Positions 6,159 to 26,662 of a DNA stretch of 32,665 nt are shown piece by piece. Source of the DNA: an uncultured Candidatus Saccharibacteria bacterium. GTDB lineage: Bacteria; Patescibacteriota; Saccharimonadia; Saccharimonadales; Saccharimonadaceae. The notes under the pieces were generated by a model. That model was given only the letters and a program-made list of their open reading frames with translations. It was not told where the DNA came from and ran no database searches. The stretch lies in the NCBI GenBank assembly GCA_964349645.1, contig CAYGHK010000001.1:4235-36899 (forward strand), in the 5' to 3' direction. The translations under genes were made by a program, and so were the position numbers. How positions within the stretch are numbered: the first letter of the stretch is position 1; each line of letters opens with the position of its first letter.

Positions 6159-6164
6159 GATACA

Positions 6165-7199
6165 ATGATAAATCGTATAAGTTTAAAAAACTTTCGATCA
6201 TATAGTAGTGCAACTTTTGATTTTACAAACAAAACAAACATTATAATAGGTAAAAATGGTGTTGGAAAAACCAACATACTAGAAGCTATTAATATACTAG
6301 CCACAGGTTCATCTTTTAGGGTGAGCGATAAGGATGTAATTCAGTATGAAAAAAATAAATCAAAAATAACCGGTACTTTCGATGAAAAAAAACGAGAACT
6401 AATAATAAACGACGATAAAACAAAATATTTTAATATACAAAATACTAAAGTAAAAAGAATAAATTTTACTCAAAAAATACCAACAGTATTATTCGAACCA
6501 GACTTTATGCAAATACTCTCAAGGGGGCCGGATAAAAGAAGAGATTATTTCGACACCATACTTTCAAAAATACACCCAAACTATCAAACCATATTAAATA
6601 AATATAAAAGATCACTTTCTCAAAGAAATAACTTACTAAAAAAACAACAATTTTCAAAAGATGAGATTTTTGTATGGAATATAAAAATAAGTGAAATTGG
6701 TGGACAAATAGCACAGTTTAGAATGGATTTAGTTAGTGAAATAAACAAAACAATTAGCGAAATTTACAGCCAAATAGCTGGTAGTGAATCAAAAATAGAG
6801 ATAATTTATATGACAAAAATTAACAAACATAACTATACAGATAGTCTGCTTAAAAATTTGGAAAAAAATATAGACACAGATAAGCTGATGGGTTTTACAT
6901 CATTTGGCGTACATAGAGATGATTTTTATTTTTTAATAAACAATAAAGATGCCAATACATCCGCTTCAAGGGGTGAAGGGAGAACTATTCTTTTAGCTTT
7001 GAAAATCATTGAAACTAAACTGGTGGAAAAAGCGCGAGGGGTGCCACCAATACTCTTACTTGATGACGTTTTTTCAGAACTTGATACTGACAGACAAAGT
7101 AAGCTTGTAGATTTTTTGTATAACAATCAAGTTATAATCACTACAACCACAATAACCCCACTTATGAAGGGTGTGAGCGGTAAAATTATTGAACTATAA
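6165..7199 (+). CDS. recF: DNA replication and repair protein RecF
   Basis: 344 aa. N-terminus is ISLKNFRSY with Walker A GKNGVGKTNILEAI. The SMC-like signature is ASRGEGRTILLALK and Walker B is ILLLDDVFSELD. Confidence 0.92.
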   Translation: MINRISLKNFRSYSSATFDFTNKTNIIIGKNGVGKTNILEAINILATGSSFRVSDKDVIQYEKNKSKITGTFDEKKRELIINDDKTKYFNIQNTKVKRINFTQKIPTVLFEPDFMQILSRGPDKRRDYFDTILSKIHPNYQTILNKYKRSLSQRNNLLKKQQFSKDEIFVWNIKISEIGGQIAQFRMDLVSEINKTISEIYSQIAGSESKIEIIYMTKINKHNYTDSLLKNLEKNIDTDKLMGFTSFGVHRDDFYFLINNKDANTSASRGEGRTILLALKIIETKLVEKARGVPPILLLDDVFSELDTDRQSKLVDFLYNNQVIITTTTITPLMKGVSGKIIEL

Positions 7200-13975: not shown

Positions 13976-15871
13976 CTACTTTATTTCACCTTCACTTAAA
14001 TATCCTTTGCGAATCTCAACATCTTGATTTTCTACAGCCTGGTCGGCAAGCTCAGCTGCTCTTTTAGCATCAAGCTCCGCTTGGGGGTTGGTAGTAACAA
14101 GTTTGTGTTCAGTTGGGCTTGGAACAATTTGAATATGTACATGATTTTGACCTGCGAAGAAAAGACCTTGGCCTACCGGGAAGTTGTTTAGTCGTTTTCT
14201 TTCTTCTTCGGTAAGTTTAAATACATCAGCCAGAACATCTACTGCGCTTGAGCTTTGTTTTAGTAGTAACTGCATGCTGGCGTTAGCAACAATAGCACGA
14301 CCCATTTTACTAGCCATAAAATCTTCTACGTCTTGGCTAATTGTAGTGAGTCCAAGGTAATATTTTCGTGCACGTTTAGCCAAACTAAAAATAAAGTTTG
14401 CAGAGTCTTCGTACTTCATCAGTTGCCATGCCTCATCAACAATTAGCATTCGTTTCTTTTTGTCAGTTCGAGTTTTGTTCCAGATATGGTTCAAAATGAT
14501 ATACATTGCAGTTGGACGCAACTCGTCCTCGAGAGTTTGAATATTAAACACAACCATATTGTTGTTTATATCAACATTACTTTGTTGAGAGAAGATGCCG
14601 GCAAATGTTCCTGTAGTATATTTTCGTAGCCTTTGAGCCAATTCTGGGCCAGAGCCGCCCATATGGAGCAACGTGTCATAAAGGTCGTTGATTGTAGGCG
14701 GCGTCGACTGGTGAGTAAGCGGATCACTCGTAATGCCGACGCGCGCATAAGTATCGATCAACGCTTGATCGAGGTCAGCTTCTTGGTTCGGCGTAAGTGG
14801 AACGGCTTGGTTGCTTATCATTAGTTTGATAAGTCCATGTAGGGTTATTAGGTTTGCTCGTAGTGAATCATCAGCATCTTCTTCGTCGATAACCCTCGGT
14901 AAGTCAAAAGGATTTATGCGAATATCAGAGTTTAGACTCATTTGTACGTAGCTACCACCCACTGCTTCACATAGTTTTTGGTATTCATTTTCAGGGTCGA
15001 TGATTATGACTTCCGTACCGGTCATCATAGAGCGTATCGCTTCAAGCTTCACAGCAAAGGATTTACCAGCACCGGATTTTGCAAAAACAACCATATTTGC
15101 GTTTTCGAGAGAGAATCTATCAAAAATAACCAAACCGTTGTTGTGCATGTTTATTCCGTATAGGACGCCTTTTTCTTGAGTAAGATCGGCAGATGTAAAT
15201 GGAAAGCTAGTTGAAATTGCCCCAGTGTTCATGTTGTGACGAATCTGCAATTGGTCTGAAAGTTGAGGTGCTGTACTTTGCACACCCTGCTCTTGTTGGC
15301 TGGAGGCGACTTTGCTAAAAATAAGCTGTTGACCAAGTGTACTTTCAACTTTGTGCTGCATGAAGTCCATTTCATCTAAGCTGTCGGCGTATAAAGTAAT
15401 GTATAGACCGTATCGGAAGAAACGCTCAGCACCAAGTTGCAGCTGATCACGTAGCTCTTCGGCGTCGCTAATTGCAGCTTCAAGACCCGGGTCGCGAACC
15501 TTACCTTTTTCGCTATTTATGCTCTGCGATGCTTCAAGTTGAGTTACTTTTCGACGCAAGTTTTTCATAACAATTTCCGACTCAACTGGGTAAATAAACA
15601 TAGCTATATCCACTACTTCATCGGCATTTATGATCGAGCTAAGCCAGCCAGTATATAGCTGACGAGGATATCCGTACACATAAAGCGTTCGGCCGTATTT
15701 ATTGCCAAGTCGGAAGTATGAGCTATTAATTTCTAAACTACTTGGAGCAATGAGGTCACGAAGGGTTCGAACTCCTTTTAAAAACTCTTGTTCGATTTCG
15801 GCCTGTTCCCTAGCACGTTGCTGGGCGGCTATGTCGATAGCATCTTGCTTTTTACCGCCAAAAATACCCAT
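13976..15871 (-). CDS. virB4: VirB4/TrbE/PrgJ-family T4SS ATPase
   Basis: 631 aa. The N-domain pattern is LIAPSSLEINSSYFRLGNKYGRTLYVYGYPRQLYTGWLSSII. Walker A is FAKSGAGKSF and Walker B is RMLIVDEAWQL, followed by GLTTISQDVEDF. Its start overlaps the upstream stop by 1 nt (TAATG). Confidence 0.88.
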   Translation of the reverse strand: MGIFGGKKQDAIDIAAQQRAREQAEIEQEFLKGVRTLRDLIAPSSLEINSSYFRLGNKYGRTLYVYGYPRQLYTGWLSSIINADEVVDIAMFIYPVESEIVMKNLRRKVTQLEASQSINSEKGKVRDPGLEAAISDAEELRDQLQLGAERFFRYGLYITLYADSLDEMDFMQHKVESTLGQQLIFSKVASSQQEQGVQSTAPQLSDQLQIRHNMNTGAISTSFPFTSADLTQEKGVLYGINMHNNGLVIFDRFSLENANMVVFAKSGAGKSFAVKLEAIRSMMTGTEVIIIDPENEYQKLCEAVGGSYVQMSLNSDIRINPFDLPRVIDEEDADDSLRANLITLHGLIKLMISNQAVPLTPNQEADLDQALIDTYARVGITSDPLTHQSTPPTINDLYDTLLHMGGSGPELAQRLRKYTTGTFAGIFSQQSNVDINNNMVVFNIQTLEDELRPTAMYIILNHIWNKTRTDKKKRMLIVDEAWQLMKYEDSANFIFSLAKRARKYYLGLTTISQDVEDFMASKMGRAIVANASMQLLLKQSSSAVDVLADVFKLTEEERKRLNNFPVGQGLFFAGQNHVHIQIVPSPTEHKLVTTNPQAELDAKRAAELADQAVENQDVEIRKGYLSEGEIK

Positions 15872-16698
15872 TAGTTGCTCTCCTGGCTAAGGTTTGGCCG
15901 TGGCGCTTCGCCCGCACCCTTTTGGATATAGGTGTTGGTGATGTTGTTAAAATCCCCTAAAGGTTGGCGAACGGCAGTATCTGGGTTGTAGAAGTTGTAG
16001 TAGAGCTCGCCAAGCTCCTTGGTGTTGAGTTGCACCGAACGAACTCCCATTTGGAATAAACCACTCAAAACTGTGTTGATGCGGTTTTGTAACTCATCTT
16101 TGGCTTTGTCATATGCTTCTTGGTTGATTTTAATATTCACCTGTTGCTGAGGTTTAAATAGGTTTGAAAATAGGTTTTTACTCGAAGCAACTGCGCTATC
16201 AAGATCTCCAGCTGGGTAATATGGTACAACCAGGAAAAAACTCTTGTCCATAATATTCGCTTCTTGTGCAAGCTGGTCGATAAAGTCTATGTAATTGTCC
16301 ATCAGTACTCCTAAGAGCATGTTGTCTTGACCTCTACGCATTTTATCGAGTCTGTCGAGGTATGGTGCGATATCTACTCTTTGTGAGCGAATTAATATTT
16401 GTATCGGAAAGGTCAAAGAATTTAAAAAACTTTGGTAGGCGTACTCAACACCTTCACGCTCTCGTGAGCTCATGAGGTCAAAGTTGATTGACTTACAGGT
16501 TATAACCGCACGAAAACTACCGTCGCTCATGATCACCATATTTTCACGTATTTCAGATATCAAGAGTGCGTTTTGTGCACTGTTTGGATTTTTCTTTGCT
16601 GCTGCAGGTGCAGGTTGTTGAGGGTTTTTCCCGGCAGCTTGAGGTGCTCCAGGTTGTCCTGGGGCTTTAGGTTGGGTATTATTTTTATTTGGCTGCAT
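15871..16698 (-). CDS. Hypothetical protein, VirB4 N-terminal-domain-like with no NTPase motifs
   Basis: 275 aa with a Pro/Gln/Ala-rich disordered N-terminus. The segment ISEIRENMVIMSDGSFRAVITCKSINFDLMSSREREGVEYAYQSFLNSLTFPIQILIRSQRVD resembles the start of VirB4/TrbE N-domains. There is no Walker A. It is translationally coupled to virB4. Confidence 0.4.
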   Translation of the reverse strand: MQPNKNNTQPKAPGQPGAPQAAGKNPQQPAPAAAKKNPNSAQNALLISEIRENMVIMSDGSFRAVITCKSINFDLMSSREREGVEYAYQSFLNSLTFPIQILIRSQRVDIAPYLDRLDKMRRGQDNMLLGVLMDNYIDFIDQLAQEANIMDKSFFLVVPYYPAGDLDSAVASSKNLFSNLFKPQQQVNIKINQEAYDKAKDELQNRINTVLSGLFQMGVRSVQLNTKELGELYYNFYNPDTAVRQPLGDFNNITNTYIQKGAGEAPRPNLSQESN

Positions 16699-16741: not shown

Positions 16742-17680
16742 CTAATGCAACTTAATCTCCACCTCTTCTTCGGCTTGTTTTTCTTCTATACGCTTCGCTT
16801 GCTTGGCGAGCGTACTCACCTTATAGCCTTGACTGTTGTCTACGAGGTTTATTATATCAGGAGACGGCGTGTTATCGCTAGTGCTTTGAGCAGTTTGGTC
16901 AACACTTGTCGTTTCTGGTTTAGAATCTTCGGGATCGACCACTTCTCCGACTGGATGTATAACTGTTTGGTGAATTGACGAAGGGTATGGGTCAAACTTT
17001 ACTTTATCGAGTATTTTTTTTGCTTCTTTTTCGAGTTCGTCATCTGTTACGTCAGGCTTTTTCGGCTGAGCCTTCTTGGCTGGTTTTGCAGCTTGCTCCA
17101 TTCGATCTATCGCCGCTTTTTGGCTGATAGTTTTTTGTTCTTTTATAAGTTTATCGAAAGAGGTTTCTTCTAAAATATCTTCCATATTGTCAACTTCGGC
17201 AACCACATTTTCGGCCAAACTAACATTTCCAGTACTGTTAACATCAGGGTTAAACACGCCCCTCGCAGCCCAACCTCGTGTGTCCATAATTTGCGAAAGC
17301 CTGTCTAGCCTGTCCAGTGCTTCGTCTTGACTGATGTCTTTTGTTCTTTGCTCCTCTATAACGTGCGGCGCGGTTATCTCAACAGTTGAAATAACGCCGT
17401 CGGGCATCCACAAGCGTTTTTTGGACTTTAAGTTGTATTGTAATATCGCAGCCAGGTAGGTTTCGGTCGGTTGATCTTTGCGTAAAGGTAGGGCTATTGC
17501 AGTAAAAAATATTATAAATGGCAATGGAATCAATATAAGCCCAACAAATATTTTACTGAGTATAAATGCCACAAAACAAGCAAATGCCACTATAATAAGG
17601 TAAATAAACTGACGAAAGCCAAAAGGCCCTATCAGCTTATCTTCTGCTTCAACATCCTGGGGTACTTTGTAGACTGCCAT
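16742..17680 (-). CDS. PrgI/VirB3-like T4SS membrane protein with a long charged C-terminal extension
   Basis: MAVYKVPQDVEAEDKLIGPFGFRQFIYLIIVAFACFVAFIL plus a second TM helix fits the PrgI-family N-terminus. I prefer the ATG at 17680. The track starts at 17719, adding 13 residues. Confidence 0.6.
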   Translation of the reverse strand: MAVYKVPQDVEAEDKLIGPFGFRQFIYLIIVAFACFVAFILSKIFVGLILIPLPFIIFFTAIALPLRKDQPTETYLAAILQYNLKSKKRLWMPDGVISTVEITAPHVIEEQRTKDISQDEALDRLDRLSQIMDTRGWAARGVFNPDVNSTGNVSLAENVVAEVDNMEDILEETSFDKLIKEQKTISQKAAIDRMEQAAKPAKKAQPKKPDVTDDELEKEAKKILDKVKFDPYPSSIHQTVIHPVGEVVDPEDSKPETTSVDQTAQSTSDNTPSPDIINLVDNSQGYKVSTLAKQAKRIEEKQAEEEVEIKLH

Positions 17681-17787
17681 GCTTATGTTTATTATATAGG
17701 ATTTCTCAGTTAAAATCACAAATCCAAGAGATTATATATTTACAAATATTCATTTTTAGTTTATTGTAATTTACAAAAGGAGATATT

Positions 17788-18468
17788 ATGGGATTTGAAG
17801 ATTTTATTTCAAAAACTGGAGCTGAGGTAAAAATAAGCCAAGCGAATCAAAAAGAAACTGAGCGTAGAAAAAAAGATGCGATAAGTATTATATCAAAAAC
17901 CCGTGATATTTTTAACTATTTGCCTGATATGGAAAAAGCCTGCGACCACTACGATCATTTAGGAGATAGGCGGTTTATTCTTGGTGAGGGACATAGGACC
18001 CCCTTTGTAGCTCTTTCAGCAGATGGTGTTGAAGCTGCTATTATACGCGACAGATTCTTTAAGCGTAATTTGGAAACGGAAGAAGTAGAATACCACAGTC
18101 ATGCATATACACTTGTAATACGAGTTAATGGAGCCGATAATCCATACGCGAAAGTAGAAGAAAAAGATTCATATAATAATGGATATACAGCTCAGCCAAC
18201 TATAGGATATGCAGAAGATCGCCGACATGAAAGTTATAAACTTTTTGTACCAGGTACAGAAGAAGAAGACAGAGAGGCGATTCAACTTTTCAGCGAGGTA
18301 TGTGATGCGCTTGAACGAAAGTATGGGCCGCTGCAGAAGCCTGATTTTAGGTCCAAAGACAGACCAATCCAACATTTACCTACGAAACGAAGAAAAGAAG
18401 TTCAACCAACTGTTCCCGCGGGCTGGAGTCACGCAAATAAAAGAAGGCGGTTTTTCAAGAAGAAATAG
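17788..18468 (+). CDS. Hypothetical soluble protein with a basic C-terminus
   Basis: 226-aa ORF preceded by a good RBS (AAGGAG, 7 nt upstream). It has no TM helix or signal peptide, and no motif I recognise. Confidence 0.65.
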   Translation: MGFEDFISKTGAEVKISQANQKETERRKKDAISIISKTRDIFNYLPDMEKACDHYDHLGDRRFILGEGHRTPFVALSADGVEAAIIRDRFFKRNLETEEVEYHSHAYTLVIRVNGADNPYAKVEEKDSYNNGYTAQPTIGYAEDRRHESYKLFVPGTEEEDREAIQLFSEVCDALERKYGPLQKPDFRSKDRPIQHLPTKRRKEVQPTVPAGWSHANKRRRFFKKK

Positions 18469-18509
18469 ACTTGCAAAATTATACTTTTTATGCTAATATA
18501 ACTGATGAA

Positions 18510-19937
18510 ATGTCAGAACAACCACCACAAACAAACAGCGAAACACCAAATCCTGCAGATAACTTCGAAGATATTCGGGATTTAGTTGAAGTTGGTGATG
18601 ATGAAAATGGTGACGGTGTAAACACTCTTCACAGGCCAGATGGAAGCGGCAAGCTACTTTCTGTTGATGAGCTTGAGATGATACGGGAAAATCAAGATCT
18701 AATACGAAATGAAACCCAAGAAATGCCCAGCGATGGTCTTGAAAGTGAACCCAGAGCCGAAAAGATAGCTCACTACATACACAAACATAGTAAGGGTAAA
18801 GGCACTTCTCCCGAAGTAGTTAGGGAATTGTATAAAAGACTCGAAGCAGAGGGCGATGAATTTCTAGATGACGACCCCACTGAAGTAATGCAAGCGCCAG
18901 ATTCTCGGTTTACCCCCGAGGAGATTCGAAAACAACAAGAATTACTAGCTAAGATAGATGAAGCAGATCGTATATTCGATCGAAAAAAGCGCATGTTAGC
19001 GCTTAAAGCAATTGCCGAAGATGATGAATATAGAAATACTGATTTCGCTGGAGATACTGGCAACTTGGCTGTTGAAGCTGCACAGAGAATACGAATAAGT
19101 AAGACTCGTAGCAAATGGAATCCTCGTAAATTGTGGGTAAAAAGATCCAAAAAGAGTAATTACGAACTTAGTCAGATGTCTTACGAAGAAGACAAAAGAT
19201 ACAGTCTTCACGCTGCAAAAGCTATGGGTGGCAACCTACATATAAAAGATAAAAACACCTACCCAGGCCGGAACGAAACAATACACAGGGCTAACAAGTG
19301 GTATGAAACAAAAGTCGTCCTTGGTTTGGAAGAAAAACTAGCTACAGTTAAGCGTCAAATTCCTGAAGCAGAAGAAAAAGTTCAAGAGGCGGAGCTCAGG
19401 CTCGCTGCTGATAGCGAAAATAAAGGTCTGCAAGAAGAGGCTGAAAAGGCAAAGGTTGTTCTACGTACATTAGAAAAATCAGAAGTTAGTACATTTCATG
19501 AACTAGAACAGAGGAAATACGATACTCTAGATGCGCTTTGCACACTACGTGGATTTGGCGGTAATGAGTATTTTGGCAAAGGTATTGCCTATTTGGCTAT
19601 TACAAAAAACGATCCAAATCTTCTTCGCGCACTTGAAGGTCTTGATCGTGTTAGTCTTAGGCGTCGAGAACAGCCAGTTGAAATACCTGGACTTGGGAAA
19701 GCGCGCGAGCTGTATCACAAAACTCGTATCAATAAAGCCGAAGTGATGATGATTCCTGAAAATCTAAAGCAGAAAATTAAAACAATAGAAGATAAAAGGC
19801 AAGGTGGACAGATAGATGGTTCCGAAGCAGCATTAGCTCGAGAAAAGGCTATAGCCCAAGCTCGAGAAGAAGCTCGGTCAATTAAGCAGCCAGATTGGCG
19901 TGATGAAGCTATTATTCGAATTAATAAATTAGCTTAA
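18510..19937 (+). CDS. Hypothetical soluble protein with an acidic N-terminus and coiled-coil-like Glu/Lys-rich segments
   Basis: The ORF is open from TTG at 18471. The first ATG, at 18510, gives MSEQPPQTNS.... There is no TM helix. Its stop codon overlaps the stop of the convergent gene within cTTAAg (19934-19937). Confidence 0.6.
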   Translation: MSEQPPQTNSETPNPADNFEDIRDLVEVGDDENGDGVNTLHRPDGSGKLLSVDELEMIRENQDLIRNETQEMPSDGLESEPRAEKIAHYIHKHSKGKGTSPEVVRELYKRLEAEGDEFLDDDPTEVMQAPDSRFTPEEIRKQQELLAKIDEADRIFDRKKRMLALKAIAEDDEYRNTDFAGDTGNLAVEAAQRIRISKTRSKWNPRKLWVKRSKKSNYELSQMSYEEDKRYSLHAAKAMGGNLHIKDKNTYPGRNETIHRANKWYETKVVLGLEEKLATVKRQIPEAEEKVQEAELRLAADSENKGLQEEAEKAKVVLRTLEKSEVSTFHELEQRKYDTLDALCTLRGFGGNEYFGKGIAYLAITKNDPNLLRALEGLDRVSLRRREQPVEIPGLGKARELYHKTRINKAEVMMIPENLKQKIKTIEDKRQGGQIDGSEAALAREKAIAQAREEARSIKQPDWRDEAIIRINKLA

Positions 19938-21268
19938 GATTTCCTACTAATCCACTTGCTGTAAGCCATCATCTCAATACCAAGTTGTGAATAATCAACT
20001 CTATAGAATCCATCACTATCAACTATAACTGCATTAGGGTGGCTACTAGCTACATCCTGGGCCATTACACCGACGTATTCGGTATCTTCCCAATTGTATC
20101 TAAATCTATAAAAAGGGATACCGCTAATCGTACCTAATCGTTGCACATCACGCTTTAGACGCCTATCTGATTGCTGGTAAGGTGCAGCCCGGTAGTCTGC
20201 AGCATCCTGCACTACTACATCGTGGAACCCAGGAGGCATTGCATCAATTTTTGCCTGAGTAAATGGTTTTTCAGCAGCAGCAGCAGCAAGAATTTGCCTT
20301 GCATGAATCCCCACATCATCACCCGGCCCAGCACTTGCTGCACGCTGAACGTACTGTTGGAATGATCTTTCGTCTAGATCACCAACATTAGTTGAGTCAA
20401 CCTTCTTGAAGGTCGCTTCGAAGCTTTTTGGACCACCACTTGTATCTCCTGCTGTTTCAACAAAGCTGCTGGTAATATCTGGCCTTGTTTTTTCAAGTGC
20501 ATCATAATGATCTTTACCAAGATGGGCTGCAAATGCTTGAGCTTCAGCAGAGCCGCTTTGCATTTGTGATGCAAAATCTCCAACCATATCCCTGCCGGGT
20601 GCGCCATTTTGCATTGCAAGATTTGCAATTGCTGCTCGTTGTTCATCAGTTTGGGCTTGAGCAAACTGATCGCGCAAATAATTATCTCTTCCTGTACCGC
20701 CCCCTGCATACCTTCCTCCAGGATCAGACTGGTAAGCTAGCATAGCACTTTTTATTCGAAGATCTCTTGCCTCTAGATTAAGTTTTGCTGGCTCCATTTC
20801 TTCAATTTCGCGCTTTAACCTCATCTTATCTACATTCAAGCCAACTCGTACCCCAGCGCCTCGATCAGCGCCAACGCCAACGTATCTATCTGCATTTTCT
20901 CCCATATCACTTATAACATCGTCCTCTAGGAGTCGTTTAGCTTCAGCCTCTCTATTCTGCCGTTGTGCATCCGTACGAGTAGCGCGGCCGCCTGCCCAGC
21001 GACGAAAGCGGTTTCTGCGGTTGTCTGTTATGAGGTTGCCGTTTTGATCAAGGCCGGCAGTAGTGCGCCTTGCGGATGTTTCCGTTTTGGCGAGCTGTGA
21101 TCTTTTGCCAGCATCTTCTTTCATGCCGCCTGTTAATTTGTTTCCCAAGTTTTGACCTACTCCGTACACTTTACCTAACATTGAGTTTGATGATTTTAGT
21201 AAAGCAGGTATTGCAAATAGTGGCAATGCCAGTATGACGAGTTTGAGTAAATAATTTATGACATCCAT
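19934..21268 (-). CDS. Membrane-anchored protein with a C-terminal intramolecular chaperone auto-processing domain (peptidase S74, tail-fibre/endosialidase type)
   Basis: 444 aa with the N-terminal TM helix LLKLVILALPLFAIPALL. The C-terminus reads SDRRLKRDVQRLGTISGIPFYRFRYNWEDTEYVGVMAQDVASSHPNAVIVDSDGFYRVDYSQLGIEMM. This closely follows the S74 pattern SDxRLK...GxxAQ(E/D)V...P..V......vdY..l. Confidence 0.7.
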   Translation of the reverse strand: MDVINYLLKLVILALPLFAIPALLKSSNSMLGKVYGVGQNLGNKLTGGMKEDAGKRSQLAKTETSARRTTAGLDQNGNLITDNRRNRFRRWAGGRATRTDAQRQNREAEAKRLLEDDVISDMGENADRYVGVGADRGAGVRVGLNVDKMRLKREIEEMEPAKLNLEARDLRIKSAMLAYQSDPGGRYAGGGTGRDNYLRDQFAQAQTDEQRAAIANLAMQNGAPGRDMVGDFASQMQSGSAEAQAFAAHLGKDHYDALEKTRPDITSSFVETAGDTSGGPKSFEATFKKVDSTNVGDLDERSFQQYVQRAASAGPGDDVGIHARQILAAAAAEKPFTQAKIDAMPPGFHDVVVQDAADYRAAPYQQSDRRLKRDVQRLGTISGIPFYRFRYNWEDTEYVGVMAQDVASSHPNAVIVDSDGFYRVDYSQLGIEMMAYSKWISRKS

Positions 21269-21296: not shown

Positions 21297-22859
21297 TTAG
21301 ATTAAACTCGCTGCTAAAATTGATGCGCCAAATACTACCATTAGCATAGGAAATATTATCAGTTGTTGAGTAAATAAGCTCCACCATTTTTTGAAATATT
21401 GGTCAGTATTTGGCAACAGCCAAGCGGCGAATGCAAGTGGAGATACAAGTACTAAGCCAAGCAAGATTACTTGGCGAGCAATCAACACCAGCATGGTTGC
21501 AAAGATGGATATCAAAGCAGCAAGCAATAACGGAACGGCGAGCCATAGTAGGGCGGTTGCGCCAATACTTGCCGCCGCTACTCCACCAGCCAGCAGGCCT
21601 CCGCCAATAACGGTTCCAGCTGCTACATCACCACCAGTAGAGAAGAAGTTGACTCCCCCACTGCCACCGCCGACTGCTTCATTTATTTGTGCACTTATGC
21701 TTGTGTCGCCACCACCCGCACCAATCATGAAGCCAACAATTGAGGTACCGGCTATGTTGCTGACGTCTATTAGGAATGCACATATATAGAACGATAAGTT
21801 TATAAATATTGCTCCCATGACAAGGCGAGGTAACATTCGTTTTATGCCATAGTTTGATAGCCCTACAGAGGTTGATTGTGAAAATACAATGACCATAAAC
21901 ACAATTATTAGAAGAATATTCGCCATGCTAACAAAGGCACTATGTATAGCCTGAATTTTACCCCCGTCATCTTTTTCGGCAAGTATTCGGAAGGTCAGCA
22001 TGCTTTCGATGATGCTACCCGCCCCCTGTATAGCTGATGCGAAACCATCGATTATCGGACAAAGCACCCACCCTAGAGCACCACCCTTACAACTATCAAC
22101 GTCCCCAGCAGCGCCTCCGGCACCCGTACCACCAGCCGCTTCAATAATTGCTTTTATTTCATTTTGTTCTGCTTCGGACATTTTGTAATAATTACGGGTA
22201 TTAACCGAGAATGACTCTCTAGGAAGTCCGTTATTACACTCCGGAGATAGGATTGAACTAATCTTTTCTCCCTTCGAGCTACCACCTAGATGAGGATTTC
22301 TATCATCATCGTTCAAGTTAGCAAAACTAGTATTTTCATCCTTTTCGTGAACAACACTATCCGCGGCTCCAGCTTCACCTATTTTTGTAATTTTTGTAAT
22401 GCCTGCTGTTGTGTCGTAGTTGTCGCCACCTTGAAGTGCATTCCAGTCGTTAAACTTGTAGCCCATTACATAGTCTATTTTAAAATAAGGCCTGGTGGAG
22501 GGTTCGGTTAAGGATAAAGTAGTGCCCGAACAATATACTTGTGTGACAGCAAAGTATTCGAGCTTGTCATCGGGATCGCCTGCTCCATGCTGGTTAAGTT
22601 GTTGATTGATTTCAGATGTAAATGAAAATATCGTCCCATCACCGAAGAGGCCGCCTTTTGCGACAACTTTTATCATGTCACCAACTTCTTCTTGTTTTTT
22701 GCCATCATCAAAAATGGTTTTCAGTTTGTTTTTGTCAGCATCGTCATAAAAGAGCGCGAGGTTAGTTGCTCCCACTGCTTGGGTAGCTCCGCTTGTAATA
22801 ATAGCTAAAACAACAACCAAGAATATTCCTGCCCAGCTATGTCTAAAGAAACGTTTCAT
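21297..22859 (-). CDS. VirB6/TrbL-like polytopic T4SS channel protein with a large N-terminal extracytoplasmic domain
   Basis: 520 aa. It has a signal peptide (AGIFLVVVLAIITSGATQAVGA) and a soluble region of about 290 aa. The C-terminal half has multiple TM helices and Gly-rich loops, including LVLVSPLAFAAWLLPNTDQYFKKWWSLFTQQLIIFP, which resembles the TrbL/VirB6 core. Confidence 0.65.
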   Translation of the reverse strand: MKRFFRHSWAGIFLVVVLAIITSGATQAVGATNLALFYDDADKNKLKTIFDDGKKQEEVGDMIKVVAKGGLFGDGTIFSFTSEINQQLNQHGAGDPDDKLEYFAVTQVYCSGTTLSLTEPSTRPYFKIDYVMGYKFNDWNALQGGDNYDTTAGITKITKIGEAGAADSVVHEKDENTSFANLNDDDRNPHLGGSSKGEKISSILSPECNNGLPRESFSVNTRNYYKMSEAEQNEIKAIIEAAGGTGAGGAAGDVDSCKGGALGWVLCPIIDGFASAIQGAGSIIESMLTFRILAEKDDGGKIQAIHSAFVSMANILLIIVFMVIVFSQSTSVGLSNYGIKRMLPRLVMGAIFINLSFYICAFLIDVSNIAGTSIVGFMIGAGGGDTSISAQINEAVGGGSGGVNFFSTGGDVAAGTVIGGGLLAGGVAAASIGATALLWLAVPLLLAALISIFATMLVLIARQVILLGLVLVSPLAFAAWLLPNTDQYFKKWWSLFTQQLIIFPMLMVVFGASILAASLI

Positions 22860-22941: not shown

Positions 22942-23649
22942 ATGAAAAAGTACTTATTGATAGCTTTTGTATTTGGACTGCAGATCTCTGCGCTTGTTGT
23001 GCTTACGGCGTCACCAAAAGCGTTGGCGGCTTATTCTAGCGATAAGGGTACGGAAACTTGCCAAAGCCTTTCGCCGCCAGATGACGATAACTTAAAGGCA
23101 TGTGAATATGGCTACAAAGTAGGATACGAAGGAGCTAAAGGTGGTAAATGTTTTGCTCATGTAAAAAAAGTGATGAAAGACAAATATCACAAAAACATAA
23201 ATACAGTCGAGCAGTTAAAAGCAAATGCTGTTGCTGCTCCGATGTACAGTATTTGTGGTAAAGGAAAAATTAAAGGAGCTGAGCAAAAAGCTGCAGATGA
23301 TGCCGCAAAAGAAAGTGCAGTTGCCAATGCAAAAAACACCTGCTCGGGAGTGCCGACATTTTTTGACTTTGGGTGTAATGCAGCCGGCAGCGACAAAGAA
23401 AAAAGTGGCAAAGCAAACCCAATAAGCAGGATATTATTTACAGTTATTTCTTGGCTAACAGGTCTTGTTACACTTGCAGCTATAGGTGGCGTTATATACG
23501 GTGGCATATTGTACACAAGTGCAGGTGACAATAGTAGTCAAACCCAAAAAGGTATAAGCTTTATATTCAATGCTGTTCTCGGCTTGCTTTTATGGATAAG
23601 TGCCTACGCAATAATTAACTTCCTTGTGCCTGGAGGGCTATTCACATGA
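22942..23649 (+). CDS. Pilin paralogue P1: VirB2/TrbC-like module fused to a Cys-rich N-terminal domain of about 150 aa
   Basis: 235 aa. The signal peptide ends in ALAA, and the mature N-domain has six Cys. The C-terminal module reads LVTLAAIGGVIYGGILYTSAGDNSSQTQKGISFIFNAVLGLLLWISAYAIINFLV. Confidence 0.7.
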   Translation: MKKYLLIAFVFGLQISALVVLTASPKALAAYSSDKGTETCQSLSPPDDDNLKACEYGYKVGYEGAKGGKCFAHVKKVMKDKYHKNINTVEQLKANAVAAPMYSICGKGKIKGAEQKAADDAAKESAVANAKNTCSGVPTFFDFGCNAAGSDKEKSGKANPISRILFTVISWLTGLVTLAAIGGVIYGGILYTSAGDNSSQTQKGISFIFNAVLGLLLWISAYAIINFLVPGGLFT

Positions 23650-24083
23650 GTAGGAAATTAGCAGGTATTTTGACTCTAGTATTGTTGTTTGCGGGAATTG
23701 TCAGCACTACTTCGTTGAGTCAAACAGCAACTGCTGCTGAATGTAAAAACGAAGTTTCATTGCTACCCGGAGCAAAGCCATGGTATTCGGGCTTGTGTAA
23801 AATGGATGGCGCAAACAAAACAAACGATATAGAGCTCACTACTCCACAAGAATCTGGCACAAAAATAGCGCTTAATATTTTAAATATAATCATGGTTTTG
23901 GCCGGTTATGTTGCTGTTGCTTATGTAATGTGGGGAGGGTTTAACTACCTGACCGCAACTGGAGACTCTGGAAAAACCGCTAGTGCCAAAAGAACTATTA
24001 CAAATGCGTTAATTGGGTTACTTATTTCACTTTCGGCTGTGGCGATAATATATTTTATAGGAGGCGTATATGGTATACCGTAG
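23646..24083 (+). CDS. Pilin paralogue P2 (VirB2/TrbC-like)
   Basis: 145 aa. The signal peptide ends in ATAA and the variable region has 2 Cys. The module reads VLAGYVAVAYVMWGGFNYLTATGDSGKTASAKRTITNALIGLLISLSAVAIIYF. ATGA overlap with P1. Confidence 0.72.
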   Translation: MSRKLAGILTLVLLFAGIVSTTSLSQTATAAECKNEVSLLPGAKPWYSGLCKMDGANKTNDIELTTPQESGTKIALNILNIIMVLAGYVAVAYVMWGGFNYLTATGDSGKTASAKRTITNALIGLLISLSAVAIIYFIGGVYGIP

Positions 24084-24477
24084 AGTTTTATTTTTGTGCG
24101 TAGCGCTATTTGCGGTTGTTGGTTTGTCTTTTTTTGCAAACAACGCTCACGTTGCGGCAGCTCCAGACGAAGAGCCACCAAAGCCAGCCATTGACGTTGC
24201 CGACCCCGGTAAACTGTCTGTCGATGAAGGCGAAGTCGGCATTTTAAAAGCCGACAGCGGGACTATCGTTACAAATACACTTAATGCTGTTTACGGAATC
24301 AGTGCAGTTATTGCAGTAATTGCCATTATTGCTGCTGGAATAATGTATACAATTTCCGATGGCGATCCTGGCAAAATTAGTACAGCGAAAAATGCGATTA
24401 TATATGCGACGGTAGGTTTGGTGATTATAGGCTCGGCGTTTATAATTACAGGTATAGTCCAAAGAATAGGAACATAA
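24070..24477 (+). CDS. Pilin paralogue P3 (VirB2/TrbC-like)
   Basis: 135 aa. The signal peptide ends in VAAA and the mature variable region has no Cys. The module reads AVIAVIAIIAAGIMYTISDGDPGKISTAKNAIIYATVGLVIIGSAFIITG. An AGGAGG RBS sits 5 nt upstream, inside the end of P2. Confidence 0.72.
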   Translation: MVYRRVLFLCVALFAVVGLSFFANNAHVAAAPDEEPPKPAIDVADPGKLSVDEGEVGILKADSGTIVTNTLNAVYGISAVIAVIAIIAAGIMYTISDGDPGKISTAKNAIIYATVGLVIIGSAFIITGIVQRIGT

Positions 24478-24479
24478 AT

Positions 24480-24854
24480 ATGCAAAGAATCAAAAAAATT
24501 TCCTTTATAGCCTCAATAGCGGTGCTATTACTTGCAGTAGTCAGCTTGCTCTCTTCGGATATTGCTATGGCCGCACTACCAGGCTGTGGGACAAGTAATA
24601 CACAAATATGTACTGCAAGCGACGACCTGCTTGGAGGTATATTGAAAGACGTTATAAATGTAATGCTTTACCTTGCTGGAGCGATTGCGGTAATCATGGT
24701 GGTGGTTGGCGGTATTCGCTATATTACTAGCGACGGTGACCCTGGTGCGGCTAGTAAAGCAAAAAGTACGATTATATATGCCTTGGTTGGCCTGGTTGTA
24801 GCAATAATGAGTTTTGGTATAGTAAACTTTGTGTTAGATAGGATAAAAGCATGA
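24480..24854 (+). CDS. Pilin paralogue P4 (VirB2/TrbC-like)
   Basis: 124 aa. The signal peptide ends in AMAA and the variable region has 2 Cys. The module reads LAGAIAVIMVVVGGIRYITSDGDPGAASKAKSTIIYALVGLVVAIMSFGIVNFVL. Confidence 0.75.
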   Translation: MQRIKKISFIASIAVLLLAVVSLLSSDIAMAALPGCGTSNTQICTASDDLLGGILKDVINVMLYLAGAIAVIMVVVGGIRYITSDGDPGAASKAKSTIIYALVGLVVAIMSFGIVNFVLDRIKA

Positions 24855-25243
24855 CATTAAAAAGAATAAAAAATACACTACTATCAATTTCAGCAATTGT
24901 TTTTCTTAGCGGCGTAGGTACTGTTTGTATTACTCCCCCATCAGCTTTGGCGGACACAAAAACAGAAGCACAAACAGCTGTCGACGATCTCAGCGGTACT
25001 CATGTTGATGGGACAAACAAAATAAAAACTACCATAAGAGACATAATCAACATCTTGCTGTTTTTGATCGGTATGATTGCGGTTATCATGATTGTTATTG
25101 CAGGCTTTAGGTTTGTAACAAGCAACGGTGACTCCAATACTGTATCTTCGGCCAAAAATACAATTATTTACGCTGTTATTGGTATCGTAGTCGCAGTCAT
25201 GGCCTACGCCATAGTGAACTTTATATTAGATAATATAGCTTAA
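24851..25243 (+). CDS. Pilin paralogue P5 (VirB2/TrbC-like)
   Basis: 130 aa. The signal peptide ends in ALA and the mature variable region has no Cys. The module reads LIGMIAVIMIVIAGFRFVTSNGDSNTVSSAKNTIIYAVIGIVVAVMAYAIVNFIL. ATGA overlap with P4. Confidence 0.75.
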   Translation: MTLKRIKNTLLSISAIVFLSGVGTVCITPPSALADTKTEAQTAVDDLSGTHVDGTNKIKTTIRDIINILLFLIGMIAVIMIVIAGFRFVTSNGDSNTVSSAKNTIIYAVIGIVVAVMAYAIVNFILDNIA

Positions 25244-25245
25244 AT

Positions 25246-25683
25246 ATGTTTCGTATTTTTATTTTACTTACACTTCTTGTAGGCACAGTAGCAAGTCTCG
25301 CGCAGCCTGTATCTGTGTTTGCGCTTGATGGCAATGATGAGACCAGTTCTAGAGAAGCGCTCAAGCAAGTTGGAGATAATCCTGAAGAAGAGTGTAAAGC
25401 TAGAGGGGGCAAGCTCAATGCTCAAGATGAATGTGTCGATAGTAACGGCAAGAGTCTTAATGAGGTGACATATACACTTCGCAATGTTGTGAACCTTCTC
25501 CTATATGTAGCAGGTATTATTGCCGTAGTTATAATTGTTATTGCAGGCTTTAGGTTCGTAACAAGCAACGGCGATGCCGCACAGGTTTCAAAGGCCAAAA
25601 ACACTATAATATATGCGCTTGTAGGCCTTGTAGTTGCGGTTATGTCATACGCTATAGTGAACTTTATTTTGGAAAATATATAA
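25246..25683 (+). CDS. Pilin paralogue P6 (VirB2/TrbC-like)
   Basis: 145 aa with a signal peptide and 2 Cys in the variable region. The module reads VAGIIAVVIIVIAGFRFVTSNGDAAQVSKAKNTIIYALVGLVVAVMSYAIVNFIL. Confidence 0.75.
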   Translation: MFRIFILLTLLVGTVASLAQPVSVFALDGNDETSSREALKQVGDNPEEECKARGGKLNAQDECVDSNGKSLNEVTYTLRNVVNLLLYVAGIIAVVIIVIAGFRFVTSNGDAAQVSKAKNTIIYALVGLVVAVMSYAIVNFILENI

Positions 25684-25700
25684 GACAAATGAGGAATAAT

Positions 25701-26165
25701 ATGAAAAACATAAAGAAAATATTAGGATCGGCACTACTTGTTTTGGGTGTTGGCTTGCTGTTTGTGCCGGCAACAAGCCAGGCAAAAGTCACCATAGATG
25801 ATGCTAACGCAGAAAACCACAAAGTAGCCTGTGATAAAAACGGCGGAACGGTAGATGGAAATGGCAACTGTAGCGAGGGCGGCTCAGACATTGCCAGTAT
25901 ATTTCGCGCTGTAACGAATACGATGTTGTTTTTGGTAGGTGCTGTTGCGGTTATCATGCTAATTGTTGGTGGATTTCGTTATGTCACAAGTAATGGCGAC
26001 CAAAACTCTGTTACGGCTGCCAAAAACACTATAATGTACGCACTGATTGGTATAGTAGTAGCTTTCCTAGCATTTGCGGCTGTTAACTTTGTCACCAACC
26101 AGTTGGAAAACGCAAATACGTCCGGAGAGTCAGGCTATATACAACAAGCAAGTATTTTGGTATAA
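25701..26165 (+). CDS. Pilin paralogue P7 (VirB2/TrbC-like)
   Basis: The track starts it at ATG 25689. I prefer the ATG at 25701 (MKNIKKILG...), 5 nt after GAGGA. The signal peptide ends in SQA and the variable region has 2 Cys. The module reads LVGAVAVIMLIVGGFRYVTSNGDQNSVTAAKNTIMYALIGIVVAFLAFAAVNFVT. Confidence 0.75.
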   Translation: MKNIKKILGSALLVLGVGLLFVPATSQAKVTIDDANAENHKVACDKNGGTVDGNGNCSEGGSDIASIFRAVTNTMLFLVGAVAVIMLIVGGFRYVTSNGDQNSVTAAKNTIMYALIGIVVAFLAFAAVNFVTNQLENANTSGESGYIQQASILV

Positions 26166-26203
26166 CTAAAGCATACATCTTATAAACATAAGGAGAATAC
26201 AAA

Positions 26204-26662
26204 ATGAAAATATCAAACTTAAAAACAAAACTACAGATGTTTGCTGCGACAAATTTCGCAGTGCTAACTCTAGTTGTTGGTGGAGTACTAGGCCTGTCTG
26301 CAACAGCCTTGGCTGCTGAGCAAACCTGTACTATTGAGTCTGGTAACAGTACGGCAGTTAATGATCTTACTAACCCACTCAGTGATGGTAGCGCCTGTGC
26401 TAAGGGTAATGGTCAAGGAGATAACTTGAACGACATCTTCAAAACAGTGGCTAACATTCTACTCTTTGTAGTTGGTGCTGTTGCGGTTATCATGCTTATC
26501 ATTGGTGGTCTGCGCTACGTTACAAGTAATGGCGATCAGAACGCTGTAACAGGAGCAAAAAATACTATTATGTATGCCATCATTGGTATAGTAGTAGCCT
26601 TCCTGGCGTTTGCGGCTGTTAACTTCGTGACTTCACAGCTTGAAGCAGCGAATACAAACTAG
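26204..26662 (+). CDS. Pilin paralogue P8 (VirB2/TrbC-like)
   Basis: 152 aa with an AAGGAG RBS upstream. The signal peptide ends in ALAA and the variable region has 2 Cys. The module reads VVGAVAVIMLIIGGLRYVTSNGDQNAVTGAKNTIMYAIIGIVVAFLAFAAVNFVT and is nearly identical to P7. Confidence 0.75.
   Translation: MKISNLKTKLQMFAATNFAVLTLVVGGVLGLSATALAAEQTCTIESGNSTAVNDLTNPLSDGSACAKGNGQGDNLNDIFKTVANILLFVVGAVAVIMLIIGGLRYVTSNGDQNAVTGAKNTIMYAIIGIVVAFLAFAAVNFVTSQLEAANTN

What the first reader, a model, noticed from the sequence alone, without database searches (positions are those of the whole stretch)
19934..21268. Phage tail-fibre-type self-cleaving chaperone domain (peptidase S74) on a membrane protein encoded next to VirB6
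Seen: the last roughly 85 residues read SDRRLKRDVQRLGTISGIPFYRFRYNWEDTEYVGVMAQDVASSHPNAVIVDSDGFYRVDYSQLGIEMM. The gene starts 29 nt after the VirB6-like gene and begins with a TM helix.

Established knowledge: this motif defines the intramolecular chaperone domain of endosialidases and phage tail spikes or fibres. That domain drives trimerisation and then cleaves itself off at the Ser of SDxxLK using a Ser-Lys dyad.

Inference: the T4SS-like machine may carry a trimeric fibre or spike that matures like a phage tail fibre. I do not know of a described T4SS component of this kind.
Basis: partly seen in the sequence, partly recalled or inferred. Interest (0 to 1): 0.72.

Follow-up and report, generated by a model that had tools for sequence, protein, structure and literature searches.

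The report
Self-cleaving phage chaperone domain on VirB6 tail
A Saccharibacteria type IV secretion locus encodes the split-off tail of its VirB6 channel protein ending in a genuine phage-type self-cleaving "S74" chaperone domain, a combination that recurs in related secretion loci, appears undescribed, and looks like an intracellular assembly module rather than an external fibre.

Summary
Window 19934-21268 (minus strand) is a 444-aa ORF with one N-terminal TM helix. Its last 78 residues hit Pfam Peptidase_S74 above the curated cut-off and carry the SDxxxK Ser/Lys motif. The gene starts 28 nt after a VirB6/TrbL-like gene in a chromosomal Saccharibacteria T4SS next to dnaA.

Residues 1-~340 are homologous to the C-terminal tail of "extended" VirB6 proteins. 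About 30 of 44 profile hits are single 760-1160-aa VirB6+tail proteins, and the gene boundary shifts by one TM helix in another lineage. The target is therefore VirB6's own tail, encoded separately.

The tail is all-alpha, not a beta-helical fibre. An AF2 helix count and loop charges in 63 homologues both place it in the cytoplasm.

The S74 cap is not a one-off. At least 23 T4SS loci carry it, fused or split, always with SDx[R]φK, often after a Gly/Pro/Gln linker. The closest relatives of the window protein lack it.

Best reading: an optional, self-cleaving oligomerisation or maturation module on the VirB6 tail. I found no description of this in the CPR-T4SS literature. I rate it a new variant of a known kind, with moderate to high interest.

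The parts
19934..21268 (-). Target gene: 444-aa split-off C-terminal tail of an extended VirB6, ending in a Peptidase_S74 domain (stop codon 19934-19936)
   Evidence: ORF list; Pfam; tail profile matches the C-terminal part of 760-1160-aa VirB6 proteins
21197..21253 (-). Single TM helix (aa ~6-24, YLLKLVILALPLFAIPALL), equivalent to the fifth and last membrane helix of fused extended VirB6 proteins
   Evidence: Hydropathy; alignment with fused proteins P0028 and P0074; AF2 helix 538-575 of P0074
20171..21196 (-). Tail core (aa 25-366): a strongly basic membrane-proximal stretch (net +9 over aa 25-120) followed by an alpha-helical domain; divergence increases towards the C-terminus
   Evidence: Charge; identity gradient of 100/92/95/65/45/50/45/22/10 % per 40 aa against P0003; all-alpha in AF2
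19937..20170 (-). Peptidase_S74 mini-domain (aa 367-444), the intramolecular chaperone / self-cleaving domain
   Evidence: Pfam E=5e-8 and 33.5 bits above GA 22; PHROG E=6e-20; local HMM E=1e-39
20153..20170 (-). Predicted cleavage/catalytic motif S367-D-R-R-L-K372 (Ser nucleophile at the scissile site, Lys general base)
   Evidence: Sequence; motif present in 18/19 T4SS-linked homologues although the scan patterns did not contain it; SDxxxK is described as the S74 catalytic motif in PMC10769870
21277..21280 (-). AGGA Shine-Dalgarno for the target gene, inside the 28-nt gap after the VirB6 stop codon (21297-21299)
   Evidence: Sequence
21297..22859 (-). VirB6/TrbL-like channel subunit (520 aa): signal peptide, ~270-aa secreted domain and four of the five membrane helices; it forms one extended VirB6 together with the target
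   Evidence: 519 homologues, many with PF19590/PF04610; Foldseek top hits are R388 TrwI/VirB6; boundary alignment
18471..19937 (+). Convergent 488-aa highly charged protein of unknown function whose stop overlaps the target's stop by 4 nt; it holds the same position in relatives and evolves equally fast, so it may be a partner of the tail
   Evidence: ORFs; no Pfam or NCBIfam hit; 50-57% identity in L001/L007 where VirB4 is 94-99%; similar convergent gene in L011
8577..17719 (-). Rest of the T4SS operon: PrgK-like cell-wall hydrolase (8577-11081), 970-aa unknown (11050-13962), VirB4 (13976-15871), TrsD/TraC-like (15871-16698), PrgI/VirB3-like (16742-17719)
   Evidence: Pfam; NCBIfam TrsD
22942..26662 (+). 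Eight tandem VirB2-like T4SS pilin paralogues, divergently transcribed from VirB6
   Evidence: Pfam T4SS_pilin/TrbC

Best explanation
The gene encodes the C-terminal tail of an 'extended' VirB6, the central membrane-channel subunit of the Saccharibacteria T4SS. In this lineage the tail has been split off as a separate gene directly downstream of the VirB6 core.

Shown: its single TM helix is the fifth and last membrane helix of the VirB6 unit.

Predicted: the rest of the protein, a basic membrane-proximal stretch followed by an all-alpha domain, lies in the cytoplasm.

Shown: its last 78 residues are a genuine, compact member of the Peptidase_S74 intramolecular-chaperone family with the Ser367/Lys372 dyad intact.

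Inferred mechanism: as in phage proteins, which also fold in the cytoplasm, the S74 domains of several tails associate (canonically as a trimer). This brings the VirB6 tails into register during machine assembly. The domain then cleaves itself off before Ser367, leaving a mature ~366-aa membrane-anchored tail and a free ~9-kDa fragment.

The module is optional and exchangeable. It sits at the hypervariable distal end of the tail, often behind a flexible Gly/Pro/Gln linker. It is present in many CPR T4SS loci but absent from this organism's closest relatives.
For: - S74 membership: Pfam E=5e-8, above the cut-off, full-length profile match; PHROG E=6e-20.
- The SDxxxK motif is kept in 18/19 T4SS-linked copies recovered with patterns that did not include it.
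- VirB6-tail identity: a profile of the tail core hits 44 representatives, about 30 of them 760-1160-aa proteins matched only in their C-terminal ~330 aa. Their sequences run continuously from the VirB6 core (LLPNTEQYFKKW...) through a short acidic loop into the same helix.
- In L005 the gene boundary lies one TM helix earlier.
- Southlakia SEML1_0013 is a single 1088-aa essential VirB6-like protein with a C-terminal helical domain.
- Linkage: VirB6 followed by an S74 tail, with PrgI downstream where the contig extends far enough, occurs in L004, L005, L011 and 19 metagenome loci; at least 11 are single fused ORFs of 900-1280 aa.
- Topology: the AF2 model of the fused homologue P0074 (pLDDT 77) has five membrane helices after the secreted N-domain. 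Loop net charges in 63 homologues alternate +2.0 / -1.3 / +1.1 / -1.2 / +7.0.
- No fibre: the tail is alpha-helical with pLDDT >90.
Against: - Cleavage and trimerisation were not tested, and no multimer model could be run.
- The domain is a 78-aa mini version (canonical chaperone domains are, from memory, 130-150 aa). Its fold could not be verified because the single-sequence AF2 model had pLDDT <50 there.
- The canonical S74 substrate, an upstream trimeric beta-helix, is absent.
- VirB6 is pentameric in the R388 structures (entries hit), which does not fit an obligate trimer.
- The closest relatives (P0002-P0005, L001, L007) do without the domain, so it cannot be essential to tail function.
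- The cytoplasmic topology rests on prediction. One 46-residue hydrophobic helix with a conserved central Arg could be a hairpin, which would flip the tail to the outside.
- Rapid divergence of the tail (43% identity where VirB4 is 99%) is more typical of exposed proteins.
Confidence: 0.6

Rival explanations
1. One reading: the protein is an extracellular, membrane-anchored trimeric fibre or spike of the T4SS. It would mature like a phage tail fibre, as in the Bdellovibrio MAT fibres, and contact the host bacterium.
For: - S74 domains classically cap surface-exposed trimeric fibres, including non-phage ones in a bacterial predator (PMC10769870).
- The tail and the distal end in particular are the fastest-evolving part of the locus and look mosaic, as host-recognition proteins do.
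- Gly/Pro-rich linkers resemble wall-spanning segments.
- From memory, the C-terminal domain of the extended VirB6 TraG of F is regarded as periplasmic.
Against: - There is no beta-helix or fibre repeat; the tail is an alpha-helical repeat domain.
- The helix count and the positive-inside pattern (first 40 tail residues net +7 in 100% of 63 homologues) both put it inside.
- The protein has no signal peptide. Its N-flank is neutral or acidic and its C-flank basic.
- The family works without S74 in the closest relatives.
Confidence: 0.15
2. The S74 domain is a permanent (non-cleaving) oligomerisation tag, or a functionally neutral domain picked up from phage or cellular DNA at a recombination-prone gene end, with no maturation step.
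For: - The distribution is patchy: 2 of 44 tail representatives carry the domain and the closest relatives lack it.
- It is located at the hypervariable 3' end.
- The mini-domain lacks the long C-terminal part of canonical chaperone domains.
- The closest sequence relatives are stand-alone ~150-aa proteins in ordinary cellular contigs.
Against: - Ser, Asp and Lys of the cleavage motif are retained in essentially every T4SS-linked copy across lineages with 42-61% GC. This would be unexpected for a neutral or merely adhesive tag.
- The domain recurs in both fused and split architectures.
Confidence: 0.2
3. MYRF-like regulated release: S74-driven trimerisation and cleavage liberate a functional domain from its membrane anchor, for example an effector or transcription factor.
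For: MYRF is the known precedent of an S74 domain in a membrane protein (mentioned).
Against: The geometry is wrong. The anchor is N-terminal and the S74 domain is at the extreme C-terminus, so cleavage before Ser367 frees only the 78-aa chaperone domain itself.
Confidence: 0.03

Closest known systems
Peptidase_S74 / C-terminal intramolecular chaperone domain of phage endosialidases and tail fibres or spikes (K1F endoNF 3GW6, T5 pb1 4UW8), and Bdellovibrio MAT fibres
   Same: Significant full-length match to PF13884. C-terminal position. SDxxxK Ser/Lys motif at the domain start. Conserved core motifs (Y-x-F-x-Y, G-V-M-A-Q-D, P-x-A-V).
   Different: The domain is only 78 aa. The upstream region is an alpha-helical VirB6 tail or a flexible Gly/Pro/Gln linker rather than a trimeric beta-helix. 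The host protein is a T4SS membrane subunit. The predicted location is cytoplasmic.
Extended VirB6 proteins (for example F TraG, Rickettsiales VirB6 paralogues, Southlakia SEML1_0013)
   Same: The target's TM helix plus tail is homologous to the C-terminal hydrophilic extension of 760-1160-aa CPR VirB6 proteins. It holds the same place in the operon. The function of such extensions is acknowledged as unknown (PMC12857230).
   Different: Here the extension is a separate gene, and it ends in a self-cleaving S74 domain. That feature is not reported for any extended VirB6 in the papers searched.
~310-330-aa 'peptidase_S74 domain-containing structural protein' of Rhizobium, Brucella and Bcep22-like podophages (phrog_6121 / phrog_4287 'DNA ejection protein')
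   Same: Same compact S74 subfamily (46-52% identity, E 1e-12 to 1e-14). It sits at the C-terminus of a non-fibre, Ala/Gln/Gly-rich protein encoded next to proteins that build a trans-envelope conduit (injection proteins, internal-virion PG hydrolase).
   Different: These are phage virion proteins without an N-terminal TM helix, and there is no robust similarity outside the S74 domain. Their own function is only putative.
MYRF (eukaryotic membrane-bound transcription factor with an S74/ICA domain)
   Same: An S74 domain in a membrane-anchored, non-fibre protein acting on the cytoplasmic side.
   Different: In MYRF the anchor is C-terminal to the domain, so cleavage releases the functional part. 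Here the anchor is N-terminal and only the chaperone domain would be released.

Membership tests
Peptidase_S74 (PF13884) intramolecular chaperone domain | Profile match above the curated gathering threshold | tested here: met
   33.5 bits against GA 22, E=5e-8, profile positions 1-57 of 58, aa 367-414; PHROG families with the same domain at E=6e-20
Peptidase_S74 (PF13884) intramolecular chaperone domain | Catalytic Ser and Lys in an SDxxxK motif at the N-terminal edge of the domain | tested here: met
   S367-D-R-R-L-K372; conserved in 18/19 T4SS-linked and 55/63 other subfamily members, the remainder mostly SDRR[FR]K
Peptidase_S74 (PF13884) intramolecular chaperone domain | Located at the C-terminus of the carrier protein | tested here: met
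   The domain is the last 78 residues. In all T4SS-linked homologues it ends within 1-16 residues of the stop codon
Peptidase_S74 (PF13884) intramolecular chaperone domain | Three-dimensional fold like 3GW6/4UW8 and trimeric assembly | tested here: inconclusive
   The single-sequence AF2 model has pLDDT <50 over aa 361-444. No multimer prediction was available and no sequence-level PDB hit was found
Peptidase_S74 (PF13884) intramolecular chaperone domain | Autoproteolytic release of the domain, abolished by Ser->Ala or Lys->Ala | not testable with these tools
   Needs protein expression and mutagenesis
Phage-type trimeric tail fibre / tailspike | Trimeric beta-helix, coiled-coil or collagen-like shaft immediately upstream of the S74 domain | tested here: not met
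   The upstream region is alpha-helical. The homologous tail in P0074 is an all-alpha domain with pLDDT >90. Relatives have Gly/Pro/Gln linkers before the Ser
Phage-type trimeric tail fibre / tailspike | Extracellular or virion-surface location | tested here: not met
   Predicted cytoplasmic from five membrane helices after a secreted N-domain and loop charges +2/-1.3/+1.1/-1.2/+7 in 63 homologues. This is a prediction, not an experiment
Extended VirB6 (TrbL/VirB6) C-terminal extension | Sequence homology to the region C-terminal of the VirB6 membrane core in single-chain proteins | tested here: met
   The tail-core profile hits about 30 proteins of 760-1160 aa in their last ~330 aa. The reverse HMM from fused proteins hits the query at E=3e-63
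Extended VirB6 (TrbL/VirB6) C-terminal extension | Encoded with or next to the VirB6 core inside a T4SS operon | tested here: met
   28 nt downstream of VirB6 in the window; same order in L001, L004, L005, L007, L011
Extended VirB6 (TrbL/VirB6) C-terminal extension | The neighbouring core is truly VirB6 (fold or family) | tested here: met
   Homologues carry PF19590/PF04610. The best PDB matches of the P0074 model are R388 TrwI/VirB6 chains, prob 0.92-0.94 but weak E of 0.1-0.25. The window protein itself has no Pfam hit at E<=0.01

The most novel reading that the evidence does not exclude
The S74-capped VirB6 tail is assembled and self-processed in the cytoplasm like a phage fibre. It is then itself threaded through or exposed at the T4SS, as (from my memory) has been proposed for the C-terminal domain of F TraG. 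There it would act as a hypervariable, phage-like host-recognition or host-penetration element of an obligate epibiont's essential secretion machine. A related radical reading is that the shared mini-S74 cap on podophage ejection-module proteins and on VirB6 tails marks a common assembly principle for trans-envelope conduits.
Probability: 0.12. Interest if true: 0.85.

Novelty: new variant of a known kind. Interest (0 to 1): 0.6.

Why it matters
The Patescibacteria/Saccharibacteria T4SS is essential for epibiotic growth (Wang et al. 2023, PMC10633639; review PMC12857230). Its substrate and working mode are unknown, and the role of the hydrophilic extensions of 'extended VirB6' proteins is an acknowledged open question.

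A self-cleaving, oligomerising phage module at the end of that extension gives a concrete, easily tested handle: cleavage assay, S->A and K->A mutants, and stoichiometry of the tail. It would be the first S74 domain tied to a secretion-system core subunit. If the topology prediction holds, it would be a bacterial example of S74 acting inside the cell on a non-fibre, alpha-helical substrate.

The work also re-annotates a 'hypothetical membrane protein' as the split C-terminal part of VirB6. That matters for counting T4SS components in CPR genomes.

Tried and rejected
- PDB sequence searches with the whole protein, the 89-aa C-terminus and the tail-core profile gave only chance-level hits.
- NCBIfam gave nothing for the target, VirB6, the 488-aa, 226-aa and 970-aa proteins or P0074.
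- Single-sequence AF2 of the target was too poor (pLDDT 53; <50 in the S74 part) to compare folds, so no Foldseek run was made on it.
- The genome-contig scan with the tail-core alignment found only two Saccharibacteria MAGs, because the family diverges too fast for the peptide patterns.
- An interim conclusion that S74 occurs only on split tails, and that none of 120 VirB6 homologues carry PF13884, was a sampling artefact. The metagenome scan found at least 11 fused VirB6-tail-S74 ORFs.
- A neighbour-joining tree of the ~72-aa domains did not resolve whether T4SS-linked S74 domains are monophyletic.
- GC content shows no clear foreign signature at the S74 segment.
- The match of P0006 to phrog_6121 beyond the S74 domain probably reflects Ala/Gln-rich composition and was not taken as homology.
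- MYRF-like release was considered and rejected on domain order.
Full report
**1. Observation**

- The coordinates 19934-21268 delimit a 444-aa ORF on the minus strand. The plus-strand frame is full of stops.
- Pfam-A gives one hit, Peptidase_S74 (PF13884): E=5e-8, 33.5 bits (gathering cut-off 22), aa 367-414 on profile positions 1-57 of 58.
- PHROGs gives phrog_6121 'virion structural protein' (E=6e-20), phrog_4287 'DNA ejection protein' (4e-10) and several tail-fibre families, all through the same C-terminal stretch.
- The motif S367-D-R-R-L-K372 has the SDxxxK spacing described as the S74 catalytic motif (PMC10769870).
- A hydrophobic helix spans about aa 6-24.
- The gene starts 28 nt after the stop of a 520-aa polytopic membrane protein, behind an AGGA ribosome-binding site.

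**2. Genomic setting**

The window is a chromosomal origin region: yidC, dnaA, dnaN and recF. It is followed by a monoderm-type T4SS with these components:
- a PrgK-like hydrolase
- a 970-aa unknown protein
- VirB4
- a TrsD/TraC-like protein
- PrgI/VirB3
- the target
- VirB6
- eight tandem VirB2-like pilins

Syntenic loci come from 'uncultured Candidatus Saccharibacteria' MAGs. This is the T4SS shown to be essential in Southlakia epibionticum (SEML1_0006-0019, next to dnaA) and surveyed by Quiñonero-Coronel et al. 2025. Neither that paper, the 2025 T4SS nomenclature review, nor the Wang et al. supplements mention S74 or endosialidase. A full-text search for Peptidase_S74 together with 'secretion system' found only an unrelated phage paper.

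**3. What the protein is**

- The closest homologues (P0002-P0005, 348-360 aa, 44-67% identity) align over the first ~310-360 residues and lack the S74 domain.
- A profile of this tail core was searched against 1.84 billion representatives and found 44 proteins. About 30 of them are 760-1160 aa long and match only in their last ~330 residues.
- Their sequences show a continuous protein. It runs from a signal peptide and secreted domain through the VirB6 membrane core (…SNYGIKRMLPR…LLPNTEQYFKKW…) and a short acidic loop. It then enters a helix nearly identical to the target's N-terminus (…LVVLCIPLVAIPAMIKGSSSIMGKIGG…) and ends in a helical tail.
- In locus L005 the VirB6 gene ends one TM helix earlier and the next gene (P0006) starts with that helix. 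The gene boundary therefore floats within one structural unit.
- Southlakia SEML1_0013 is a single 1088-aa, essential, TrbL/VirB6-like protein with a C-terminal helical 'ARM repeat' region.
- The target is thus the C-terminal extension of an 'extended VirB6', encoded here as a separate gene: 520 + 444 = 964 aa.
- The VirB6 identity of the core rests on PF19590/PF04610 in homologues. It also rests on Foldseek, where R388 TrwI/VirB6 chains are the best PDB matches of an AF2 model of the 51%-identical fused homologue P0074 (prob 0.92-0.94, weak E).

**4. Is the S74 cap a one-off?**

It is not.
- Three further divergent lineages have VirB6 followed by a TM + tail + S74 gene. PrgI follows in L004 (after one intervening 248-aa gene) and directly in L005, while in L011 the next gene is convergent. 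These are L004/P0009, L005/P0006 (61% GC) and L011/P0035.
- A metagenome scan used two peptide patterns from the core of the domain, not the cleavage motif. It returned 80 loci, of which 19 are T4SS loci with VirB6, PrgI, TraC-like, VirB4 and/or pilins adjacent.
- In at least 11 of them the S74 domain is the C-terminal end of one 900-1280-aa ORF that also contains the VirB6 core.
- Pfam finds Peptidase_S74 in 7 of 8 such ORFs tested.
- An HMM of the tail from fused proteins hits the segment between core and S74 in most of them, and hits the query at E=3e-63.
- The motif SDx[R][LV]K is present in 18 of the 19.
- The residues before the Ser are frequently low-complexity linkers: GPGPGPGPGPGPGPH|SD, GGTGGGTGGGTGGTS|SD, QQQQQ|SD.
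- The cap is also dispensable. Only 2 of the 44 tail representatives carry it. L007 has a VirB4 99% identical to the window's, but its tail is 43% identical and has no S74.
- Identity to P0003 falls from 100% to ~10% along the tail. The distal end is therefore a hypervariable, exchangeable region.

**5. Fibre or not, inside or outside**

- The AF2 model of fused P0074 (82-sequence alignment, pLDDT 77) shows a beta-rich secreted N-domain. It then shows five long membrane helices (318-348, 356-398, 430-475, 482-517, 538-575) and an all-alpha tail with pLDDT >90 over the last ~180 residues.
- Five passes put the tail on the side opposite the secreted domain, that is, in the cytoplasm.
- Net charges of the connecting loops give an independent check. 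In 63 fused homologues they alternate +2.0, -1.3, +1.1, -1.2, and the first 40 tail residues are +7.0, positive in 100% of sequences. This is the positive-inside pattern for that same topology.
- The window protein fits: neutral N-flank, net +9 over aa 25-120.
- No beta-helical, collagen-like or coiled-coil shaft precedes the S74 domain.
- The 'tail-fibre-like spike' reading is therefore not supported.
- It is not excluded either. The 46-residue helix with a conserved central Arg could be a hairpin. The fast evolution of the tail would also suit an exposed protein.

**6. Mechanism proposed**

S74 domains normally fold, trimerise and self-cleave in the cytoplasm of the phage-infected cell, so a cytoplasmic S74 on VirB6 is biochemically reasonable. 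I propose, as inference, the following sequence:
- The cap associates the distal ends of several VirB6 tails during T4SS assembly.
- It then removes itself at Ser367.
- This leaves a mature tail whose new C-terminus or oligomeric state suits its partners.

Candidate partners are the VirB4/TrsD ATPase complex or the co-evolving convergent 488-aa protein.

Points against this proposal:
- The domain is a mini version of the family.
- Its canonical beta-helical substrate is missing.
- VirB6 is pentameric in R388.
- Close relatives lack the cap.

**7. Comparison with known systems and novelty**

- The domain is a member of Peptidase_S74 by profile, motif and position. Fold, trimerisation and cleavage are untested.
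- The carrier is a member of the extended-VirB6 class.
- The closest S74 relatives by sequence fall into two groups. One is stand-alone ~150-aa proteins in cellular contigs. The other is ~320-aa podophage structural proteins encoded next to 'injection' or internal-virion proteins.
- Non-phage use of S74 is known in Bdellovibrio MAT fibres and in MYRF.
- I did not find an S74 domain on a secretion-system core subunit in the literature searched.
- I classify this as a new variant of a known kind. Interest is moderate to high because it is recurrent, sits on an essential and poorly understood machine, and is directly testable.

Noticed in passing
P0011-P0023 (e.g. locus L010 10001-10456): The closest sequence relatives of the S74 tail are stand-alone 100-156-aa S74 proteins in large cellular contigs with ordinary metabolic neighbours. 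They carry 'SPEP..SD[IV]RLK' before the domain and 2-3 further tandem copies of the same 'SPEPxxxSDxRLKRD' cleavage-site motif after it. This amounts to a protease/chaperone domain followed by repeats of its own cleavage site, with no fibre.
   Followed up: partly
L008 5281-6219; L009 5218-6198: In Rhizobium and Brucella podophages the same compact S74 subfamily caps a ~320-aa Ala/Gln/Asn-rich 'structural protein'. That protein lies immediately upstream of 'injection proteins' or a large PG-hydrolase internal virion protein. It is part of an ejection module rather than a tail fibre, and a hydrophobic Gly-rich segment sits just before the Ser.
   Followed up: partly
window 18471-19937 (+): A convergent 488-aa highly charged protein with no family hit has a stop codon that overlaps the target's stop by 4 nt. 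It keeps this position in L001, L007 and L011. It diverges as fast as the tail (50-57% identity where VirB4 is 94-99%), which suggests co-evolution with the VirB6 tail.
   Followed up: partly
window 17788-18468 (+): A 226-aa ORF between PrgI and the 488-aa gene has no counterpart in the syntenic loci L001, L006 or L007 (no tblastn hit) and no Pfam or NCBIfam hit. It may be a lineage-specific insertion or not a real gene.
   Followed up: no
window VirB6 21297-22859 (-), motif LIARQ; P0074 residue R458: A nearly invariant Arg (>=90% of 82 sequences) sits in the middle of a 46-residue, fully hydrophobic helix that AF2 models as one continuous membrane helix. It is either a functional channel-lining residue or the sign of a hairpin that would change the topology.
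   Followed up: partly
window 8577-11081 (-) vs L001 18957-21050: The PrgK-like cell-wall hydrolase is swapped between close relatives: Phage_lysozyme2+Amidase_3 here, Phage_lysozyme2+Amidase_2+Peptidase_C39_2 in L001. Identity is only 26% where VirB4 is 94% identical. The annotated GTG start also overlaps the upstream 970-aa gene by 32 nt.
   Followed up: no
window 22942-26662 (+): Eight tandem VirB2-like pilin paralogues (the first is 235 aa with a long N-terminal extension) show very uneven conservation between relatives, from 50% to 90% identity to L007.
   Followed up: no
window 15871-16698 and 13976-15871 (-): The 275-aa protein upstream of VirB4 matches TrsD and the N-terminal part of VirB4 models. 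VirB4 therefore appears split into two genes with adjoining coordinates (stop and start share base 15871), as described for Patescibacteria.
   Followed up: no
L055 2774-5815 / 5782-6267; L076 5782-6219: In two T4SS loci the S74 domain lies in a short ORF of 146-162 aa (stop to stop). In L055 that ORF overlaps the end of the VirB6-tail ORF. In L076 the cleavage motif is missing. These could be frameshifts, decayed copies, or a third 'stand-alone S74' arrangement.
   Followed up: no
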